From a virus (taxonomy: Duplodnaviria > Heunggongvirae > Uroviricota > Caudoviricetes): a stretch of DNA of 8,702 nt. The translations under genes and the position numbers were made by a program. The stretch is taken from the IMG/VR virus record IMGVR_UViG_2648501318_000014. One strand, 5' to 3'. Of the stretch, positions 169 to 8,192 are shown piece after piece. Each line of letters begins with the position of its first letter. Within the stretch, counting starts at the first letter, position 1. The notes beneath the pieces are model-generated. The model did no database searches. It had not been told where the DNA came from and saw only the letters and a list, made by a program, of their open reading frames with translations.

Positions 169-1041
169 ATGACATTATCTTTTTTTATAACGGTAATTCC
201 AGACCATGACAAGCCGCAGCCGCCAGGCTGCCTACTCGGTGTTAAACCGCGCATTCTCGGCGTGCCGGGGCACGATAATAAAGCCGTTGCTACTGAGTTG
301 CTGGGCGTGGCGCAAAGCCTGCGTGGGTTTGCTTACCTGTCAGCGTATGGCTGCAAGACGGTGCAGGAGGCGATCACTTACCGTGAAAACTTCAGTCAGC
401 GTGAAGGGATGCTGATCTGGCCTGACTTTACTGGCTGGGACACGGTGCTGAATGCCGACGCAACGGCATATGCCACCGCCCGTGCGCTTGGTCTGCGTGC
501 CAAAATTGATGAGCAGACAGGGTGGCACAAAAGCCTGTCCAACGTGGGCGTGAACGGTGTCACCGGAATTTCTGCTGATGTGTTCTGGGATCTGCAGGAC
601 CCGGCAACTGATGCGGGACTGCTTAACCAGAACGATGTTACCACACTTATCCGCAAAGACGGCTTTCGCTTCTGGGGTTCCCGCTGCCTGAGTGATGACC
701 CACTCTTTGCCTTCGAAAACTACACCCGCACGGCGCAGGTGCTGATGGACACGATGGCAGAAGCGCCAATGTGGGCGGTCGACAAACCGCTGAATCCGTC
801 GCTGGCCCGCGACATTATCGAAGGTATCCGCGCCAAAATGCGCAGCCTGATCAGTCAGGGCTATCTCATTGGTGGCGATTGCTGGCTGGATGAGTCGGTG
901 AACGACAAAGACACTCTGAAAGCTGGAAAACTCACCATCGACTACGACTACACACCAGTGCCGCCACTTGAAAACCTGATGCTGCGTCAGCGCATCACCG
1001 ATCAGTACCTGGTGAATTTCTCCAGCCAGGTCAGCGCGTAA
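169..1041 (+). CDS. FI: Phage contractile tail sheath protein (P2 FI family), apparently 5'-truncated: only the C-terminal ~268 residues are FI-like
   Basis: From [11 protein letters not shown] (about nt 232) to the stop, the translation follows my recollection of P2 FI closely ([70 protein letters not shown]). The in-frame stop TGA at 160-162 and a non-FI leader ([23 protein letters not shown]) show the first ~128 residues of a 396-aa FI are not encoded here. Confidence 0.8.
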
Positions 1042-1620: not shown

Positions 1621-1923
1621 ATGAGCGATAAGCAGACTGAAAAGACCATTCAACTGGATACCCCTATCAAGCGCGGTAAAACGGAAATCACCGAAATTGT
1701 GCTGCGTAAACCGCAGTCCGGTGCACTGCGCGGTACACGCCTGCAGGCTATTATGGATATGGATGTGAACGCGATGATGACCGTGATCCCCCGCATCTCC
1801 AGCCCGGCACTGACTGCACAGGAAATTGCAGAGATGGACCCGGCAGATCTCACCGCTATGTCGGTTGAGGTTGTCACTTTTTTGTTGAAGAAGTCGGTAC
1901 TTGCCGGTTTACCGACAGCCTGA
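1621..1923 (+). CDS. E: Tail assembly chaperone E (P2 gpE family)
   Basis: 100-aa ORF immediately upstream of the tape measure gene; contains the canonical slippery heptamer near its 3' end; position and size fit gpE. Confidence 0.85.
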   Translation: MSDKQTEKTIQLDTPIKRGKTEITEIVLRKPQSGALRGTRLQAIMDMDVNAMMTVIPRISSPALTAQEIAEMDPADLTAMSVEVVTFLLKKSVLAGLPTA

Positions 1924-2057
1924 CGGTTGACGATCTGGTGGCTGATATCGCCACCATCTTTCACTGGCCGCCATCCGTTACTGACGTTATGCCGCTGACC
2001 GAAGTGCTGGAATGGCGGTATAAAGCGATTCAGAGAAGCGGGGCCAACGATGAGTGA
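1621..2057 (+). CDS. E+E': Tail assembly chaperone E+E', made by programmed -1 ribosomal frameshift at 1878-1884 (join 1621..1884, 1884..2057; about 145 aa)
   Basis: T TTT TTG sits in the X XXY YYZ register of the E frame; the -1 frame is open from 1884 to TGA at 2055-2057 and overlaps the T start, as in the P2 E/E' and lambda G/GT paradigm. Predicted extension: VEEVGTCRFTDSLTVDDLVADIATIFHWPPSVTDVMPLTEVLEWRYKAIQRSGANDE. Confidence 0.7.
1878..1884 (+). promoter_or_regulatory. -1 programmed frameshift slippery heptamer TTTTTTG
   Basis: Heptamer is in the correct register relative to E codons act|ttt|ttg. Confidence 0.7.
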
Positions 2058-5000
2058 TAATAACCTGCGCCTGCAGGTCATTCTTAATGCGGTTGACAAA
2101 CTCACCCGCCCATTCCGTGCTGCACAGGCCAGTTCGAAAGAGCTGGCTGGCGCAATTCAGAATACCCGAAACAGCCTCAAAGAACTGAATAAGCAGGCTG
2201 GCAGAATTGATGAATTTCGCAAGACGCGCTCGCAACTAGCCATAACAGCCAACAACCTGAACGCAGCCCGCGAAGAGGCGGCAAAACTCGCCACACAATT
2301 TGCTGCCACTAACAGGCCAACCGCCGCGCAGGCAAAGTTATTCAGTCAGGCCAAAACACGAGTACAGGAACTTCAGCAGACCTATAACGGCTTGTTGGGG
2401 GCGGTCCAGAGACAACGTCAGGCACTTAAAGAATCAGGGATTGATACCAGACAACTCAGTAGTGCCCAGCGAGAACTTAAGAAAAATGCTGAAGAAACAA
2501 GGCAGGCACTGGAGGGCCAGCAAAAAGCACTTAAACGTCTGGGTGAACAACAGGCACGGATGAACGCTGCCAGAGAACAATACTCAAGACGGCTTGAAGT
2601 GCGCGATCGCATCGCAGGAGCCGGAGCCACTACCACGGCTGCAGGGCTGGCAATGGGGGCGCCAGTGATGGCGGCAGTAAAAAGCTATACCAGCATGGAA
2701 GATGCCATGAAAGGTGTGGCAAAGCAGGTCAATGGTCTGCGTGACGATAATGGCAACCGCACTGCACGTTTTTATGAAATGCAGGATGCCATCAAGGCTG
2801 CCAGCGAACAGTTGCCGATGGAAAACGGTGCGGTGGACTTCGCTGCACTGGTTGAAGGTGGTGCGCGCATGAACGTCGCAAACCCTGACGACAGCTGGGA
2901 AGACCAGAAACGTGACCTGCTGGCCTTCGCCAGTACGGCAGCAAAGGCGGCAACAGCCTTTGAGCTGCCAGCGGATGAACTGTCAGAAAGTCTGGGGAAA
3001 ATCGCCCAGCTCTACAAAATACCAACCCGCAATATTGAACAGCTCGGCGATGCGCTGAACTATCTGGATGATAACGCCATGTCGAAAGGGGCGGACATCA
3101 TTGATGTGATGCAACGTCTGGGCGGTGTGGCTGACCGTCTGGATTATCGTAAAGCGGCGGTGCTGGGTTCCACCTTCCTGACACTGGGCGCTGCGCCGGA
3201 GGTTGCAGCCAGTGCAGCAAACGCGATGGTGCGTGAATTGTCCATTGCCACCATGCAGAGCAAGAGTTTCTTTGAAGGGATGAATCTGCTGAAACTCAAT
3301 CCTGAAGTGATTGAAAAGCAGATGACGAAGGATGCGATGGGAACTATCCAGCGTGTGCTGGAGAAGGTGAACGCACTGCCGCAGGACAAGCGTCTGTCTG
3401 CCATGACCATGTTGTTTGGTAAAGAGTTTGGCGATGACGCGGCGAAACTGGCAAACAACCTGCCGGAACTGCAGCGTCAGTTAAAACTGACAGCGGGCAA
3501 TGATGCGCTCGGCTCCATGCAGAAAGAATCCGACATCAATAAGGACTCACTTTCTGCTCAGTGGTTACTGGTCAAAACCGGAGCGCAGAACACCTTCAGC
3601 AGCCTGGGCGAAACGCTGCGCCAGCCGCTGATGGATATTCTGTACACGGTGAAAAGCATCACGGGGGCGTTGCGCCGCTGGGTGGAAGCTAACCCGGAAC
3701 TGACAGGCACACTGATGAAAGTAGCGGCTGTTGTGGCTGCGGTTACCGTAGGCCTCGGCACCTTAGTGGTGGCGCTGGCTGCAGTGCTGGGGCCGCTGGC
3801 AGTCATCCGTCTGGGATTCTCTGTGCTGGGTATCAAAACGTTACCTTCCGTTACGGCAGCAGTAACACGAACCAGCAGCGCGTTGTCCTGGTTAGCTGGC
3901 GCTCCACTGGCACTGCTGCGACGCGGGCTTGCTTCATCGGGCAACGCAGCGGGTTTACTTACTGCGCCGTTGTCGTCTTTGCGCCGCACGGCATCACTGA
4001 CGGGGAATGTCCTGAAAACTGTAGTAGGTGTGCCGGTTGCACTGTTGCGGTCTGGATTATCCGGTTTACGTGCTGTTGCTGTGATGTTTATGAATCCACT
4101 GGCAGCACTACGCGGTGGACTGGCTGCCGCAGGCGCGGTGCTGCGAGTACTGGCATCCGGTCCGCTGGCGATGCTGCGCGTTGCCCTGTATGCCATATCG
4201 GGTCTGTTAGGTGCTCTGCTCAGTCCGATAGGTCTTGTGGTTACTGCACTGGCGGGCGTGGCGCTGGTTGTCTGGAAATACTGGCAACCCATCACCGCAT
4301 TTCTCGCTGGTGTGGTGGAAGGATTCAAAGCGGCGGCAGGTCCCATCAGTGCAGCATTCGAACCACTTAAGCCTGTGTTTCAGTGGATTGGCGACAAAGT
4401 GCAGGCGTTGTGGGGCTGGTTTACTGATCTGCTGACGCCCGTTAAGTCGACCTCTGCCGAACTGCAGAGCGCAGCGGCAATGGGGCGACGATTCGGGGAG
4501 GCACTGGCGGAAGGGCTGAATATGGTCATGCATCCGCTGGACTCCCTGAAATCCGGCGTTTCCTGGTTGCTGGAGAAACTCGGCATTGTCAGTAAAGAGG
4601 CTGCAAAGGCGAAATTGCCGGAAAGAGTGACGCGTCAGCAACCTGCGACGGTGAATGCAGACGGTAAAGTGATGATGCCATCGGGTGGTTTTCCGTCATG
4701 GGGATATGGCTTTGCGGGGATGTATGACAGCGGCGGCTATATCCCGCGCGGGCAGTTTGGCATCGTCGGTGAAAACGGGCCGGAAATTGTTAACGGCCCG
4801 GCAAATGTGACCAGCCGGAGAAATACAGCTGCACTGGCTGCCGTTGTTGCCGGAATGATGGGCGTTGCTGCCGCGCCTGCAGAGCTTCCACCGTTGCATC
4901 CTTTGGCACTTCCCGCGAAAGGCGGCGAAGCGATGGTGAGTCGTGCAGCCACTGTGCCGCCCGTTCACCGGATTGAGGCACCGACGCAGATCATCATTCA

Positions 5001-5127
5001 GACGCAGCCAGGACAAAGTGCGCAGGATATTGCGCGGGAGGTGGCACGCCAGCTTGATGAACGTGAACGCAGGCTGAAGGCAAAAGCCAGGAGTAACTAC
5101 AGCGATCAGGGGGGATACGACGCATGA
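2050..5127 (+). CDS. T: Tail tape measure protein (P2 gpT family), 1025 aa
   Basis: Long ORF after E/E'; coiled-coil-like Q/A/K/R-rich N-terminal half, long Ala/Leu/Gly-rich hydrophobic central region, Gly-rich C-terminal part (GENGPEIVNGP); position matches tape measure. Confidence 0.9.
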   Translation: MSDNNLRLQVILNAVDKLTRPFRAAQASSKELAGAIQNTRNSLKELNKQAGRIDEFRKTRSQLAITANNLNAAREEAAKLATQFAATNRPTAAQAKLFSQAKTRVQELQQTYNGLLGAVQRQRQALKESGIDTRQLSSAQRELKKNAEETRQALEGQQKALKRLGEQQARMNAAREQYSRRLEVRDRIAGAGATTTAAGLAMGAPVMAAVKSYTSMEDAMKGVAKQVNGLRDDNGNRTARFYEMQDAIKAASEQLPMENGAVDFAALVEGGARMNVANPDDSWEDQKRDLLAFASTAAKAATAFELPADELSESLGKIAQLYKIPTRNIEQLGDALNYLDDNAMSKGADIIDVMQRLGGVADRLDYRKAAVLGSTFLTLGAAPEVAASAANAMVRELSIATMQSKSFFEGMNLLKLNPEVIEKQMTKDAMGTIQRVLEKVNALPQDKRLSAMTMLFGKEFGDDAAKLANNLPELQRQLKLTAGNDALGSMQKESDINKDSLSAQWLLVKTGAQNTFSSLGETLRQPLMDILYTVKSITGALRRWVEANPELTGTLMKVAAVVAAVTVGLGTLVVALAAVLGPLAVIRLGFSVLGIKTLPSVTAAVTRTSSALSWLAGAPLALLRRGLASSGNAAGLLTAPLSSLRRTASLTGNVLKTVVGVPVALLRSGLSGLRAVAVMFMNPLAALRGGLAAAGAVLRVLASGPLAMLRVALYAISGLLGALLSPIGLVVTALAGVALVVWKYWQPITAFLAGVVEGFKAAAGPISAAFEPLKPVFQWIGDKVQALWGWFTDLLTPVKSTSAELQSAAAMGRRFGEALAEGLNMVMHPLDSLKSGVSWLLEKLGIVSKEAAKAKLPERVTRQQPATVNADGKVMMPSGGFPSWGYGFAGMYDSGGYIPRGQFGIVGENGPEIVNGPANVTSRRNTAALAAVVAGMMGVAAAPAELPPLHPLALPAKGGEAMVSRAATVPPVHRIEAPTQIIIQTQPGQSAQDIAREVARQLDERERRLKAKARSNYSDQGGYDA
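3901..4221 (+). repeat. Five degenerate in-frame tandem repeats (period 63-66 nt) inside the tape measure gene, consensus about P-L-A-x-L-R-x-G-L
   Basis: Repeats APLALLRRGL / APLSSLRRTASL / VPVALLRSGL / NPLAALRGGL / GPLAMLRVAL; the proline codons fall at 3904, 3967, 4033, 4096 and 4162. Confidence 0.5.
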
Positions 5128-5609
5128 TGATGGTGCTGGGATTGTACGTGTTTATGCTGCGCACCGTTCCGTATCAGGAACTGCAGTATCAACGCAGCTG
5201 GCGACATGCGGCAAACAGCCGGGTAAACCGTCGTCCGTCCACGCAGTTTCTGGGACCGGACAACGACATGCTGACGCTTTCTGGTGTTCTTATGCCGGAG
5301 ATAACGGGCGGCAGGCTGTCGTTGCTGGCTCTGGAGCAGATGGCAGAACAGGGAAAAGCATGGCCCCTGATTGAAGGCAGCGGCACGATTTACGGCATGT
5401 ATGTGATTGAGGGACTGAATCTGACTAAAACGGAGTTTTTCCGCGACGGTATGCCGCGCCGGATTGAGTTCACCCTGTCGCTCAAACGGGTGGATGAATC
5501 CCTGTCCGATATGTTCGGTGATCTCAGTACGCAGCTGAATAATCTGCAGGACACGGCAACATCTGCCTTAAGTGATATCAGTAAAACGGTGGGAGGGCTG
5601 CTGTCGTGA
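5124..5609 (+). CDS. U: Tail protein U (P2 gpU family)
   Basis: 161-aa ORF whose ATG overlaps the T stop (ATGA at 5124-5127); size and position match gpU. Confidence 0.85.
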   Translation: MMMVLGLYVFMLRTVPYQELQYQRSWRHAANSRVNRRPSTQFLGPDNDMLTLSGVLMPEITGGRLSLLALEQMAEQGKAWPLIEGSGTIYGMYVIEGLNLTKTEFFRDGMPRRIEFTLSLKRVDESLSDMFGDLSTQLNNLQDTATSALSDISKTVGGLLS

Positions 5610-6706
5610 ATTTCAGCTCTGAACTGCTTAACAAAGGCAACAAAACTCCCGCATTCAGCATCAGTATTGAGGGCAGGGATATCAACACTGTGCTGGATAA
5701 CCGCCTGATGAGTTTGACTCTGACGGACAATCGGGGCTTTGAAGCGGACCAGCTTGATCTGGAGCTGGACGACGCCGACGGAAAAATCGTGCTGCCGCGC
5801 CGTGGTGCGGTCATTACGCTGGCGCTGGGCTGGAAGGGGCAGCCGCTTTTCCCTAAAGGGGCATTCACGGTGGACGAGATTGAACACACTGGCGCACCGG
5901 ACCGCCTGACTATCCGGGCGCGAAGTGCTGATTTTCGTGAAACGCTGAATACCCGCCGTGAAAAGTCGTGGCACAAGACCACCGTTGGGGAAGTGGTGAA
6001 GGAAATAGCCTCGCGGCATAAGCTGAAGATGGCACTGGGTAAAGACCTGTCGGATAAGCCCGTGGAACATATAGACCAGACCAATGAGAGTGACGGCAGT
6101 TTTCTGATGCGGCTGGCGCGCCAGTACGGTGCTATTGCGTCGGTGAAAAATGGCAATCTGTTATTCATCCGGCAGGGACAGGGTAAAAGCGCCAGCGGTA
6201 AACCACTGCCGGTGATCACTATCACACGCAAGGACGGCGACAGTCACCGCTTTACCCTGGCAGATCGCGGAGCCTACACGGGCGTAATTGCCAGCTGGTT
6301 GCATACCCGCGAACCCGCGAAGAAAGAAAGCACTACGGTGAAGCGTAAGCGCAGAACGAAGAATCAGAAGAAAGAGCCGGAAGCGAAGCAGGGCGATTAC
6401 CTGGTGGGTACGGATGAAAACGTGCTGGTACTCAATCGCACCTATGCCAATCGGAGTAACGCCGAACGGGCAGCGAAAATGCAGTGGGAACGCCTGCAAC
6501 GCGGCGTTGCGTCATTCTCGCTACAACTGGCGGAAGGGCGGGCAGATCTCTACACGGAAATGCCAGTGAAAGTCAGTGGCTTTAAACAGCCGATAGATGA
6601 TGCGGAATGGACCATTACGACTCTGACACATACCGTCAGCCCGGATAATGGTTTTACGACCAGTCTTGAGCTTGAAGTGAAGGTTGATGATCTCGAAATG
6701 GAATGA
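5606..6706 (+). CDS. D: Tail protein D (P2 gpD, late control D family)
   Basis: 366-aa ORF with GTG start overlapping the U stop (GTGA at 5606-5609); position immediately upstream of ogr as in P2. Confidence 0.85.
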   Translation: MNFSSELLNKGNKTPAFSISIEGRDINTVLDNRLMSLTLTDNRGFEADQLDLELDDADGKIVLPRRGAVITLALGWKGQPLFPKGAFTVDEIEHTGAPDRLTIRARSADFRETLNTRREKSWHKTTVGEVVKEIASRHKLKMALGKDLSDKPVEHIDQTNESDGSFLMRLARQYGAIASVKNGNLLFIRQGQGKSASGKPLPVITITRKDGDSHRFTLADRGAYTGVIASWLHTREPAKKESTTVKRKRRTKNQKKEPEAKQGDYLVGTDENVLVLNRTYANRSNAERAAKMQWERLQRGVASFSLQLAEGRADLYTEMPVKVSGFKQPIDDAEWTITTLTHTVSPDNGFTTSLELEVKVDDLEME

Positions 6707-6763: not shown

Positions 6764-6796
6764 GTGAATTTAGCAAAAATGGGGAGAACTCGAAAA

Positions 6797-7015
6797 ATGA
6801 TGATTTGCCCACTGTGTGGAAGTGCCGCCCATACTCGCAGCAGTTTTCAGGTATCTTCATTGACCAAAGAGCGTTACAACCAGTGCCAGAACATTAACTG
6901 CAGCCATACTTTTGTTACCCATGAAACTTTTGTTCGTTCGATTGCAACGCCAAAAGAGTCAAATCCGGTTCAGCCGCATCCTCATAAATTTAAACAGGTG
7001 GGTTTGCCGATTTAA
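6797..7015 (+). CDS. ogr: Ogr/Delta-type C4 zinc-finger late transcription activator, 72 aa
   Basis: MMICPLCGSAAHTRSS...KERYNQCQNINCSHTF matches the CxxC...CxxxxC Ogr zinc finger; SD GGGGAG about 10 nt upstream of the ATG at 6797; 72 aa as in P2 Ogr. The ORF-track start at 6764 adds a non-homologous extension and is less likely. Confidence 0.85.
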   Translation: MMICPLCGSAAHTRSSFQVSSLTKERYNQCQNINCSHTFVTHETFVRSIATPKESNPVQPHPHKFKQVGLPI

Positions 7016-7256: not shown

Positions 7257-7276
7257 TATCTATGGAGGAACAAGTT

Positions 7277-7450
7277 ATGGATACAAACGAACTTGGCTTA
7301 GTTAAGGCGCGTGTTGAACTGATCACCGCTATGCTCAAATGCGCAACCGCGTTTGTTGGCTTAGTTGGTGCGGTTTACGCCGTTCTTAACATGGCCTTCA
7401 ACTACAGCAATTTAACTCATGACAATAGAAGTTCAAAGGTGGGAAGATAA
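7277..7450 (+). CDS. Small hypothetical membrane protein (57 aa, one predicted TM helix); candidate effector or partner of the RT
   Basis: SD GGAGG at 7264-7268, 8 nt before the ATG at 7277; product MDTNELGLVKARVELITAMLKCATAFVGLVGAVYAVLNMAFNYSNLTHDNRSSKVGR has a ~25-residue hydrophobic core; its 3' end overlaps the RT start by 32 nt. Confidence 0.4.
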   Translation: MDTNELGLVKARVELITAMLKCATAFVGLVGAVYAVLNMAFNYSNLTHDNRSSKVGR

Positions 7451-8192
7451 ATTTGAGATTAAGCCCGGGGTTTGGGTTTATGTCCCAAGCGTTGAGGCAC
7501 GTAAAGTCGGAGGGAAGATACTTCAGGCTGTCAGAAACAAGTGGATTCCGCCACTCTATTTTTACCATCTAAGAACTGGTGGGCATCTTAAAGCTGCCAG
7601 ATTACACTTAAAAAGTGATTTTTTTGCCGTTGTTGATATTAAACAATTTTTTCAGTCAACGAGCCGTAGTCGTATCACCCGTGATCTAAAGAGCTACTTC
7701 ACCTATTCTCAAGCGCGGGAAATCTCAACATTTTCAACTGTAAGAAACTTGTCCCATAGTCCACATAAGCATGTCCTCCCTTTTGGTTTTGTTCAATCTC
7801 CAATACTTGCAACCCTCTGCTTAGATAAAAGTTATTTTGGTAGCTTACTACGCCGATTGAACAAACATCATGATCTCAAGCTAAGTGTGTTTATGGATGA
7901 TGTGATCATCTCGTCAAACGATTTGGCCCAATTACAAGCGGCTTACGACGAAGCACTAGTGGCAATGCGCAAATCTGGTTATCAAGCCAACATGAGTAAA
8001 ACTCAGGCACCATCGTCAAAGATTAGCGTGTTTAATTTAACTTTGAGTAAGGGAGTTATGAAAGTCACATCTCAGAAAATGAGTGACTTCCTGATTGATT
8101 TCTATTCAAGCAATTATGAGCCGCACAGAATAGGGGTCAAAAACTACGTCGAAGCTGTTAATCCAGGGCAAGCGAAACTCTTTAAGTTGTAA
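7419..8192 (+). CDS. Compact reverse transcriptase (257 aa) with retron-type motifs
   Basis: Motif 1/2-like YVPSVEARKVGGKIL; NAxxH-like AARLH; motif A FAVVDIKQFFQS (Asp codon 7635-7637); motif B LPFGFVQSPILATL; motif C VFMDDVII (Asp-Asp codons 7896-7901); KVTS in the position of the retron VTG motif. Frame is closed by TAA at 7413-7415 just upstream, so no longer N-terminus is possible. Confidence 0.85.
   Translation: MTIEVQRWEDKFEIKPGVWVYVPSVEARKVGGKILQAVRNKWIPPLYFYHLRTGGHLKAARLHLKSDFFAVVDIKQFFQSTSRSRITRDLKSYFTYSQAREISTFSTVRNLSHSPHKHVLPFGFVQSPILATLCLDKSYFGSLLRRLNKHHDLKLSVFMDDVIISSNDLAQLQAAYDEALVAMRKSGYQANMSKTQAPSSKISVFNLTLSKGVMKVTSQKMSDFLIDFYSSNYEPHRIGVKNYVEAVNPGQAKLFKL

What the first reader, a model, noticed from the sequence alone, without database searches (positions are those of the whole stretch)
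3901..4221. Tape measure is about 200 aa longer than I recall for P2 gpT and carries five tandem 21-22-residue hydrophobic repeats
Tape measure length sets tail length, and internal repeat arrays are a route for length change. The repeat period is 63-66 nt with consensus P-L-A-x-L-R-x-G-L. Repeat expansion may explain the 1025-aa size versus about 815 aa for P2 gpT (the P2 figure is from memory).
Basis: partly seen in the sequence, partly recalled or inferred. Interest (0 to 1): 0.4.

Follow-up and report, generated by a model that had tools for sequence, protein, structure and literature searches.

The report
Variable-copy helix repeats in tape measure
The tail-length ruler protein of this P2-like E. 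coli prophage carries five old, diverged copies of a 21-22-residue positively charged helix; they explain about half of its extra length over phage P2's ruler, and related prophages carry 2, 4 or 6 copies, a clear but unsurprising example of how such rulers change length.

Summary
Gene T (2050-5127, 1025 aa) contains five tandem units of 21/22/21/22/21 residues at nt 3904-4224 (aa 619-725). Their consensus is P-L-A-x-L-R-x-G-L. The periodicity and motif count were never reached in composition-preserving shuffles. P2 gpT is indeed 815 aa.

Of the 210 extra residues:
- 108 lie exactly where the five units (107 aa) sit, between two family-conserved hydrophobic helices (144 aa here, 36 aa in P2).
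- 81 lie in the C-terminal tail.
- About 21 lie upstream.

The units are old (24-48% aa identity; no DNA-level tandem repeat), so this is not a recent expansion.

The array still changes copy number. Near-identical prophage alleles carry 6 units (a 66-nt tandem duplication), 4 units, 2 units (a 192-nt deletion at a 10-nt microhomology in the P-L-A codons) or a +11-aa partial duplication. All are in frame, and the two checked at DNA level sit in intact tail operons.

Across the wider family, this hydrophobic block and the C-tail are the main length-variable regions.

The effect on tail length (about one sheath ring per unit) is inferred, not measured. This is a new example of a known phenomenon, of modest interest.

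The parts
2050..5127 (+). Gene T, tail tape measure protein, 1025 aa
   Evidence: ORF. TIGR01760 E=2.3e-92 and PF10145 E=5.4e-18. 98.9% aa identity to the phage Cartapus tape measure protein.
2050..2583 (+). N-terminal coiled-coil region, aa 1-178; colinear with P2 T aa 3-177 at 47% identity
   Evidence: BLASTP. AF2 models long helices here with pLDDT 76-92.
2647..3750 (+). TP901-type tape-measure core domain (TIGR01760), aa 200-567
   Evidence: P2 T has the same domain at aa 199-549.
3718..3792 (+). First strongly hydrophobic helix (TM1-like), aa 557-581, KVAAVVAAVTVGLGTLVVALAAVLG
   Evidence: Mean Kyte-Doolittle hydropathy 2.2. Present in all family representatives examined.
3793..3843 (+). 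Unit 0, aa 582-598, PLAVIRLGFSVLGIKTL: the family-conserved single copy of the P-phi-A-x-phi-R motif. P582 is invariant.
   Evidence: 27 of 39 family representatives have exactly one motif copy, at this position. P582 is invariant in alignment A2.
3904..3966 (+). Repeat unit 1, aa 619-639, PLALLRRGLASSGNAAGLLTA
3967..4032 (+). Repeat unit 2, aa 640-661, PLSSLRRTASLTGNVLKTVVGV
4033..4095 (+). Repeat unit 3, aa 662-682, PVALLRSGLSGLRAVAVMFMN
4096..4161 (+). Repeat unit 4, aa 683-704, PLAALRGGLAAAGAVLRVLASG. This unit is duplicated in 6-unit alleles, deleted in 4-unit alleles and partly duplicated (+11 aa) in P0026.
4162..4224 (+). Repeat unit 5, aa 705-725, PLAMLRVALYAISGLLGALLS. It is also present in the sister lineage (P0121, P0130, P0132).
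4225..4287 (+). Last hydrophobic helix, aa 726-746, PIGLVVTALAGVALVVWKYWQ. It is homologous to P2 T aa 597-617. P726 and W745 are invariant.
4288..4602 (+). Conserved C-terminal block, aa 747-851. Together with the last helix it is 46% identical to P2 T aa 586-722.
   Evidence: It is the most conserved region among close homologues.
4603..4989 (+). Variable C-terminal tail, aa 852-980. It holds the other 81 extra residues relative to P2 T. It includes the motif GGYIPRGQFGIVGENGPEIVNGPANV (aa ~885-926, nt 4702-4827).
   Evidence: The motif is shared with siphophage tape measure proteins (H50-H60). It is duplicated in the 1139-aa alleles. AF2 pLDDT is about 30.
1621..1923 (+). Gene E (tail assembly chaperone, Phage_TAC_7), 100 aa. 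Its length is unchanged in the 2-unit and 6-unit alleles.

Best explanation
The feature is a lineage-specific array of five paralogous alpha-helical units of 21-22 aa. Each unit begins with a Pro kink followed by L-A-x-L-R, and each is amphipathic and cationic. The array sits between the two conserved hydrophobic helices of a P2-family tail tape measure protein.

**Origin.** The units are copies of a motif present once in most family members, immediately after the first hydrophobic helix. The array is old and normally stable at five units.

**How copy number changes.** The conserved codons at each unit start (CCACTGGC, encoding P-L-A) still act as microhomology for replication slippage or unequal recombination. 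This generates in-frame alleles with 2, 4, 5.5 or 6 units.

**Contribution to length.** The array adds 107-108 aa relative to P2 gpT, about half of the 210-aa difference. The rest lies mainly in a second variable region, the C-terminal tail.

**Inferred effect on the tail.** By the ruler mechanism, scaled on P2 itself (815 aa for 32 sheath rings of 39.5 A, about 25.5 aa per ring), each unit should change the tail by about 0.85 ring (~3.3 nm). The array should add about 4 rings. The whole 1025-aa protein should give about 40 rings (~158 nm), against 32 (~126 nm) in P2.

**Possible second role.** The array lies in the segment proposed to form the inner-membrane DNA conduit after ejection, so it probably also enlarges or modifies that membrane-active module.

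**Shown versus inferred.** Shown: the existence, statistics, position, age and copy-number polymorphism of the array, and the junction sequences. Inferred: the effect on tail length and any membrane or chaperone role.
For: - **Periodicity and motif statistics:**
- **Unit coordinates and divergence:**
- **Mapping against P2 T:**. This gives +108 aa in the block, +81 aa in the C-tail and +21 aa upstream.
- **Natural alleles:**. These are P0038 (1047 aa, +22), P0027 and P0028 (1003 aa, -22, with two different crossover points), P0031 (961 aa, -64) and P0026 (+11).
- **Block lengths among the 120 closest clusters:**. 184 aa in 110, 206 in 6, 162 in 2, 120 in 1, 195 in 1.
- **DNA junctions:**. A 66-nt tandem duplication that is 65/66 identical, and a 192-nt deletion at the microhomology TCCACTGGCA.
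- **Intact context:** the variants lie in intact tail operons with unchanged sheath, tube, E, U and D lengths, on 24 and 13 contigs.
- **Family-wide pattern:** the block spans 64-261 aa and accounts for 44% of length covariance, the C-tail for 28%. Other lineages carry their own independent repeats in the same block (P0237, P0146).
- **Constraint within units:** positions P1, L5, R6 and G13 are nearly invariant across 82 homologue clusters, although the array is overall one of the least conserved regions.
- **P2 geometry and conduit proposal:** 192 gpFI subunits with 39.5 A rise, and the proposal that released tape measure protein forms the inner-membrane conduit (bioRxiv 10.64898/2026.09.14.750843).
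- **Length-to-tail proportionality:** deletions in the hydrophobic region also shorten tails in TP901-1 (PMC5099701).
Against: - No tail-length measurement exists for any phage carrying this tape measure protein. Cartapus virions were never imaged (PMC9928086). The MLG42 figures (tail 234 nm, head 128 nm for a 31-kb genome) look mis-scaled (PMC11126057).
- Not every tape-measure residue need count toward length.
- Prophage alleles with 2 or 6 units have not been shown to make infectious particles.
- The AF2 model of the block has pLDDT 31-44, so the helix assignment rests on sequence periodicity and low-confidence secondary structure.
- The comparison with P2 is between mosaic, deeply diverged genes. 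'Expansion' is relative to the family's usual single-copy state, not to a P2-like ancestor.
Confidence: 0.7

Rival explanations
1. The repeats are primarily functional modules rather than a length spacer. Each cationic amphipathic helix would be either a membrane-inserting or pore-lining element of the conduit that the ejected tape measure protein forms across the periplasm and inner membrane, or a repeated docking site for the tail assembly chaperone gpE/E+E'. Length change would then be a by-product.
For: - The array lies between the two TM-like helices, in the region proposed for P2 to form the inner-membrane conduit.
- The block has 15 R/K and no D/E, with hydrophobic moments of 0.24-0.41 per unit.
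- Motif positions P1, L5, R6 and G13 are nearly invariant, although the rest of each unit drifts.
- Unit length of 21-22 aa is about one bilayer-spanning helix.
- Hydrophobic tape-measure regions have been linked to chaperone binding, and one such region is essential in TP901-1 (PMC5099701).
- Lambda gpH* forms the trans-envelope channel (PMC12617516).
Against: - P2 T and most family members manage with one copy of the motif or none.
- Alleles with 2 units persist in intact operons, so five copies are not required for basic function.
- Gene E is unchanged in the 2- and 6-unit alleles.
- Units 1-3 are too polar (mean Kyte-Doolittle 0.5-1.1) for classical TM helices.
- This reading is not mutually exclusive with the ruler reading.
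Confidence: 0.2
2. The apparent repeat is not a true duplication array. It would be convergent periodicity of an Ala/Leu/Gly-rich amphipathic helix with low-complexity composition, and the length difference from P2 would simply reflect replacement of a module by recombination.
For: - Units are only 24-48% identical, and no DNA-level repeat is detected.
- A 3.6-residue helical periodicity runs through the region.
- The central part of T is not BLASTP-alignable to P2 T, and N-terminal modules are visibly swapped among close relatives.
Against: - Composition-preserving shuffles never reproduce the lag-21/22/43 signal or the six motif copies.
- Pro spacing is strictly 21/22/21/22/21/21.
- Natural alleles differ by exactly one or three whole units, with junctions inside the shared P-L-A codons.
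- The same motif is the family-conserved element after the first hydrophobic helix.
Confidence: 0.05
3. The periodic signal belongs to a gene on the opposite strand, the 262-aa ORF at 3558-4346 (-), rather than to T.
For: A 262-aa antisense ORF spans the region.
Against: - The + frame is continuous with a 1025-aa protein that matches curated tape-measure models and thousands of homologues.
- The antisense ORF lies in the frame whose third codon positions coincide with those of T. This is the usual stop-free shadow frame of G+C-rich Ala/Leu/Gly coding sequence.
- Copy-number variants are in frame for T.
Confidence: 0.02

Closest known systems
Bacteriophage P2 gpT (tail length tape measure protein, NP_046782, 815 aa)
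   Same: - Same operon position (FI-FII-E/E'-T-U-D-ogr).
- Same TIGR01760/PF10145 core.
- N-terminal 175 aa are 47% identical, and the last hydrophobic helix plus C-block (137 aa) are 46% identical.
- Homologous extreme C-terminus.
   Different: - 210 aa shorter.
- Its inter-helix block is 36 aa, uncharged and Ile/Ala/Gly-rich, with no P-L-A-x-L-R motif.
- It lacks the GIVGENGPE C-tail module.
- The central region is not BLASTP-alignable.
TP901-1 and staphylococcal/mycobacteriophage tape measure proteins with 11- or 18-aa Trp/Phe-marked repeats (Belcaid et al. 2011, PMC3271669; Mahony et al. 2016, PMC5099701)
   Same: - Tandem helical units inside a tape measure protein.
- Copy number varies between relatives and provides a natural substrate for duplication and deletion.
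- Deletions shorten tails proportionally.
- Hydrophobic regions are present.
   Different: - The unit here is 21-22 aa, not 11 or 18.
- It is marked by Pro and Arg rather than Trp/Phe. Neither of Belcaid's two patterns matches.
- The array lies inside the hydrophobic, putatively membrane-active block rather than in a separate repeat domain.
- The host virus is a contractile-tailed P2-like phage.
Escherichia phage Cartapus (Elveevirus) and Fels-2-like tape measure proteins
   Same: 98.9% aa identity over the full length, with the same five units. The Klebsiella, Salmonella, Citrobacter and Yersinia relatives at 84-89% identity keep all five units.
   Different: Nothing material. These records annotate the protein only as 'tail tape measure protein'. 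I found no description of the repeat array in the papers searched.
Lambda gpH / gpH*
   Same: A ruler protein that is ejected and forms the trans-envelope channel, with hydrophobic segments proposed as membrane-spanning (PMC12617516).
   Different: No detectable sequence similarity was found here, and no equivalent repeat array is known. Lambda is a siphophage.

Membership tests
Phage tail tape measure protein, TP901-type core (TIGR01760 / PF10145 PhageMin_Tail) | Match to the curated HMMs above their cut-offs | tested here: met
   TIGR01760 309.7 bits (cut-off 28.8), aa 200-567. PF10145 66 bits (cut-off 33.2).
P2 gpT orthologue (Peduoviridae tape measure) | Position in the tail operon between E/E' and U-D, downstream of sheath and tube genes | tested here: met
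   ORF order in the window, compared with P2 and Cartapus annotation and with Pfam-labelled neighbours.
P2 gpT orthologue (Peduoviridae tape measure) | Colinear sequence similarity over the whole protein, and similar length | tested here: not met
   Only aa 4-178 and 715-851 align by BLASTP. The protein is 1025 aa against 815 aa. It is the same family but a different, mosaic subtype (Elveevirus/Fels-2-like).
Tape measure function (ruler) | Tail length proportional to protein length | not testable with these tools
   No usable EM data for this lineage. The proportionality is established for lambda and TP901-1, and the P2 geometry is known.
Protein tandem-repeat array | Periodicity and motif recurrence beyond what composition gives | tested here: met
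   0 of 5000 and 0 of 20000 shuffles reached the observed values.
Protein tandem-repeat array | Copy-number polymorphism in whole units among close relatives | tested here: met
   Changes of +22, -22 (twice, independently), -64 and +11 aa, all inside the array.
DNA-level tandem repeat | Detectable head-to-tail nucleotide copies | tested here: not met
   TRF finds nothing in 3900-4225. Units are 33-56% identical in nucleotides. The repeat finder reports only short 2-copy matches.
Belcaid/TP901-1-type aromatic-marked 11- or 18-aa tape-measure repeats | [FW]-x10-[FW] x6, or the 11-11-18 pattern | tested here: not met
   Zero matches to either pattern.
Transmembrane / pore-forming segment of a tape measure protein | Hydrophobic helices long enough to span a bilayer; membrane insertion after ejection | tested here: inconclusive
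   Hydropathy is TM-like for aa 557-581 (Kyte-Doolittle 2.2), unit 5 (1.65) and aa 726-746 (1.37). Units 1-3 score only 0.5-1.1. Insertion itself cannot be tested here.

The most novel reading that the evidence does not exclude
The 21-22-residue cationic amphipathic helix may be a functional quantum of the tape measure protein rather than inert ruler. Each unit is exactly six helical turns, so its conserved Arg lies on the same face in every unit. Each unit corresponds to slightly less than one 39.5-A tube ring. Under this reading, copy number (2-6) would jointly tune the tail ring count and the length or stoichiometry of the conduit that the ejected protein builds across the periplasm and inner membrane. 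That would give widespread E. coli prophages a slippage-driven way to adapt injection to different envelopes.
Probability: 0.12. Interest if true: 0.55.

Novelty: new member of a known kind. Interest (0 to 1): 0.3.

Why it matters
Tape measure repeats as a substrate for tail-length evolution are established for siphophages. This finding adds a well-documented case in a contractile-tailed P2-like phage, with a different unit.

The natural allelic series (2, 4, 5, 5.5 and 6 units) occurs in otherwise near-identical tail operons. This tape-measure type is present in about 19% of complete E. coli genomes (1044 of 5426).

That series is a ready-made experiment for two questions:
- How many tape-measure residues equal one sheath or tube ring in a myophage?
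- Does the hydrophobic, putatively conduit-forming block count toward the ruler?

It does not change current understanding of how tape measures work.

Tried and rejected
1. **Tandem Repeats Finder and the repeat finder on the DNA.** No array was found because the units are too diverged. The repeat is visible only at protein level.
2. **Junction-specific megablast queries.** The aim was to count 6-, 2- and 4-unit alleles in complete E. coli genomes. The result was uninformative: the tool joins nearby pieces, so ordinary 5-unit alleles also score 100% coverage. Allele frequencies therefore rest on protein-cluster and contig counts and on one -66-nt hit in the spread sample (H116).
3. **AlphaFold2 of the full protein with a 25-sequence alignment.** The N-terminal coil and TIGR01760 core are confident. 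The repeat block has pLDDT 31-44 and the C-tail about 30. Only helix breaks at the unit-initial prolines (640, 683, 705, 726) could be read off, so no fold search was run.
4. **PDB sequence search.** The only hit was a marginal one to FtbJ (9j1k, E=0.005). It was not pursued.
5. **Literature search for tail lengths.** None exists for Cartapus. The MLG42 values are internally implausible.
6. **A 43-aa double unit, suggested by the lag-43 peak.** Rejected. The peak follows from the alternating 21/22 lengths, and the unit-to-unit identities (u1-u4 and u4-u5 are highest) do not support pairwise duplication.
7. **Belcaid's aromatic 11-aa patterns.** Absent.
8. **The antisense 262-aa ORF.** Judged a shadow frame of the G+C-rich coding sequence.
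Full report
**What the window is.** The 8.7-kb window is the right end of the late tail operon of a P2-like (Peduoviridae) prophage.
- Gene order: sheath C-terminus (169-1041), tube (1051-1566), E chaperone (1621-1923), T (2050-5127, 1025 aa), U (5124-5609), D (5606-6706) and ogr (6764-7015).
- T matches TIGR01760 (E=2e-92, aa 200-567) and PF10145.
- T is 98.9% identical to the tape measure of Escherichia phage Cartapus (genus Elveevirus). It is 84-89% identical to those of Klebsiella and Yersinia phages.
- The 801-nt stretch around the finding is 100% identical to E. coli CV839-06. Related copies occur in 1044 of 5426 complete E. coli genomes.

**Checking the observation.** The five units are real.
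- They start with Pro at aa 619, 640, 662, 683 and 705. The lengths are 21/22/21/22/21 aa, at nt 3904-4224.
- The consensus is P(5/5)-L(4/5)-A(4/5)-x-L(5/5)-R(5/5)-x-G(3/5)-L(4/5).
- BLOSUM62 autocorrelation peaks at lags 21, 22 and 43 (z = 4.2, 3.4, 7.1). None of 5000 composition-preserving shuffles reached the maximum.
- The lag-43 peak arises because alternating 21/22 lengths put every second unit in exact register.
- The motif P-phi-x-x-phi-[RK] occurs six times in aa 557-741, against 0.14 expected (0 of 20000 shuffles).
- A 3.6-residue periodicity runs through the region. Low-confidence AF2 secondary structure breaks helices at the unit-initial prolines.
- The units are old: 24-48% aa identity and 33-56% nt identity. 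This is why TRF finds no DNA repeat.
- They are cationic and amphipathic rather than simply hydrophobic. Units 1-5 carry +10 net charge. The block 557-746 has 15 R/K and no D/E, whereas the equivalent P2 segment is almost uncharged.

**Where the extra length lies.** P2 T is 815 aa.
- BLASTP aligns window aa 4-178 with P2 aa 3-177 (47% identity), and window aa 715-851 with P2 aa 586-722 (46% identity). The centre does not align, although both proteins have the TIGR01760 core (window 200-567, P2 199-549).
- Conserved landmarks fix the offsets at three points. At the first Pro after the first hydrophobic helix it is +21 (P582 versus P561). At the Pro that starts the last hydrophobic helix it is +129 (P726 versus P597). 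At the C-terminus it is +210.
- The inter-helix block is therefore 144 aa here and 36 aa in P2. The difference is +108 aa, against 107 aa for the five units.
- A further 81 aa lie in the C-terminal tail (aa 852-980 versus P2 723-772). This tail contains a GGYIPRGQFGIVGENGPE module absent from P2 T.
- About 21 aa lie upstream of the block.
About half the extra length does map to the repeats, and the short P2 protein has none of them. The other half maps elsewhere.

**Evolutionary context.**
- A whole-library search gave 5788 relatives.
- In 39 representatives carrying both flanking anchors, the block between the end of the core domain and the last hydrophobic helix ranges from 60 to 261 aa.
- Among 32 full-length representatives (812-1194 aa), the block accounts for 44% of the covariance with total length. 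The C-tail accounts for 28% and the N-terminal part for 26%.
- 27 of 39 representatives have exactly one copy of the motif, directly after the first hydrophobic helix. P582 and P726 are invariant in the family alignment.
- The sister lineage (P0121, P0130, P0132; 57-77% identity) has 2-3 copies, including the equivalent of unit 5, plus an acidic insert. Only the group at 84% identity or above has the five-unit array.
- Other lineages evolved unrelated tandem repeats in the same block. P0237 has about 3.5 copies of a 50-aa unit. P0146 has units of about 19 aa of the form SGGFxG.
- The block is therefore a general hotspot for length change in this family.

**Direct evidence that the array changes copy number.** Among the 120 closest cluster representatives, the block is 184 aa in 110, 206 in 6, 162 in 2, 120 in 1 and 195 in 1. 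The sequences show the following.
- 1047-aa alleles carry an exact duplication of unit 4.
- Two 1003-aa alleles lack one unit. They have different crossover points (PLAMLRVAL versus PLAVLRVAL), so they are independent events.
- A 961-aa allele lacks units 1-3.
- A 1036-aa allele has an 11-aa partial duplication inside unit 4.
- At DNA level, the 6-unit allele is a 66-nt tandem duplication that is 65/66 identical. The 2-unit allele is a 192-nt deletion whose junction lies in the 10-nt microhomology TCCACTGGCA, the x-P-L-A codons shared by units 1 and 4.
- The 6-unit allele lies on 24 contigs and the 2-unit allele on 13 contigs, in tail operons whose sheath (390 aa), tube (171), E (100), U (161) and D (366) are unchanged.
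- Other length variants map outside the array. These are a +114-aa duplication of the C-tail module (1139 aa), a +125-aa C-tail insertion (1149 aa) and a +45-aa duplication in the conserved block. There are also small deletions and several frameshift or fusion artefacts.

**Constraint.** Across 82 homologue clusters of 1023-1025 aa, the array is one of the least conserved regions. Its mean identity to the window is 75%, against 89-95% for the TIGR01760 core (89%), the conserved C block (93%) and the last helix (95%). Even so, positions P1, L5, R6 and G13 of the units are nearly invariant. The units are thus not free spacer, although what constrains them is unknown.

**How it most likely works.**
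- *Shown:* the array is a diverged, mostly stable expansion of a family-conserved helical motif. It is still capable of slippage or unequal recombination at its conserved start codons.
- *Inferred:* by the ruler principle, tail length follows tape-measure length. In TP901-1 this holds for deletions in repeat and hydrophobic regions alike (PMC5099701).
- P2 itself has 192 sheath subunits, that is 32 rings of 39.5 A, for 815 aa (bioRxiv 10.64898/2026.09.14.750843). This gives about 25.5 aa per ring.
- On that scale one unit is about 0.85 ring and the array about 4 rings. The 1025-aa protein would give about 40 rings (~158 nm, against ~126 nm).
- The same preprint proposes that released P2 tape measure protein forms the inner-membrane conduit through its candidate TM helices. 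Lambda gpH* has been shown to form the trans-envelope channel (PMC12617516).
- The array sits exactly in that segment, so a role in membrane interaction or chaperone binding is plausible but untested.

**Comparison with the known, and verdict.**
- Repeat-bearing tape measures and their role in length evolution are established (PMC3271669, PMC5099701, PMC13585406).
- This array differs in three respects. Its unit is 21-22 aa, marked by Pro and Arg, and neither of Belcaid's patterns matches. It lies inside the hydrophobic block. Its host is a myophage.
- I found no description of it in the papers searched.
- It is a new member of a known kind.

Noticed in passing
window 7419-8192 (+), with the small ORF 7262-7450 (+): Downstream of ogr lies a 257-aa reverse transcriptase. 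Its best PADLOC match is the retron type VI RT (E=6.6e-18), with weaker matches to other retron and defence RT classes. A 62-aa hydrophobic ORF precedes it and overlaps its start. In phage Cartapus the same slot holds an exonuclease and a RES-domain gene instead, so this looks like a variable defence/moron hotspot between ogr and the prophage end.
   Followed up: partly
window 4702-4827 (T aa ~885-926): The C-tail motif GGYIPRGQFGIVGENGPEIVNGPANV is shared at about 60% identity with tape measures of unrelated siphophages (Pseudomonas PaMx28/PaMx74, Xanthomonas Xoo-sp2, Acinetobacter JeffCo). It is absent from P2 T. The surrounding ~114-aa module is tandemly duplicated in the 1139-aa alleles (P0001, P0030).
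   Followed up: partly
homologues P0030, P0037, P0038 (aa ~25-180 of T): Otherwise near-identical T proteins carry a completely different N-terminal coiled-coil segment of the same length. This indicates a module swap by recombination within the gene.
   Followed up: no
homologues P0114, P0118 (1149 aa): A 125-aa insertion follows the NGPANVT motif in the C-tail. It appears itself to consist of repeats of about 40 aa (NGPAN...R..EL...AA). This is a second, independent repeat-driven length change.
   Followed up: no
family representatives P0237 and P0146, hydrophobic block: Unrelated tandem repeats occupy the same inter-helix block in distant relatives. P0237 has about 3.5 nearly identical 50-aa units. 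P0146 has units of about 19 aa of the form SGGFxG.
   Followed up: no
window 3558-4346 (-): A 262-aa antisense ORF overlaps the repeat region. Its third codon positions coincide with those of T. It is most likely a stop-free shadow frame of G+C-rich Ala/Leu/Gly coding sequence, not a gene.
   Followed up: partly
literature: PMC11126057, Table 1: Yersinia phage MLG42 (T 84% identical to this one) is reported with a 234-nm tail but also a 128-nm head for a 31-kb genome. Its 186-type neighbours have ~67-nm heads and ~146-nm tails. The scale looks inconsistent, so the figures cannot be used as tail-length evidence.
   Followed up: partly
homologues P0014, P0035, P0037: Several 'long' T entries in the databases (1107, 1117 and 1186 aa) are frameshift read-throughs or fusions, for example a T-U fusion. 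They are not genuine long tape measures.
   Followed up: yes
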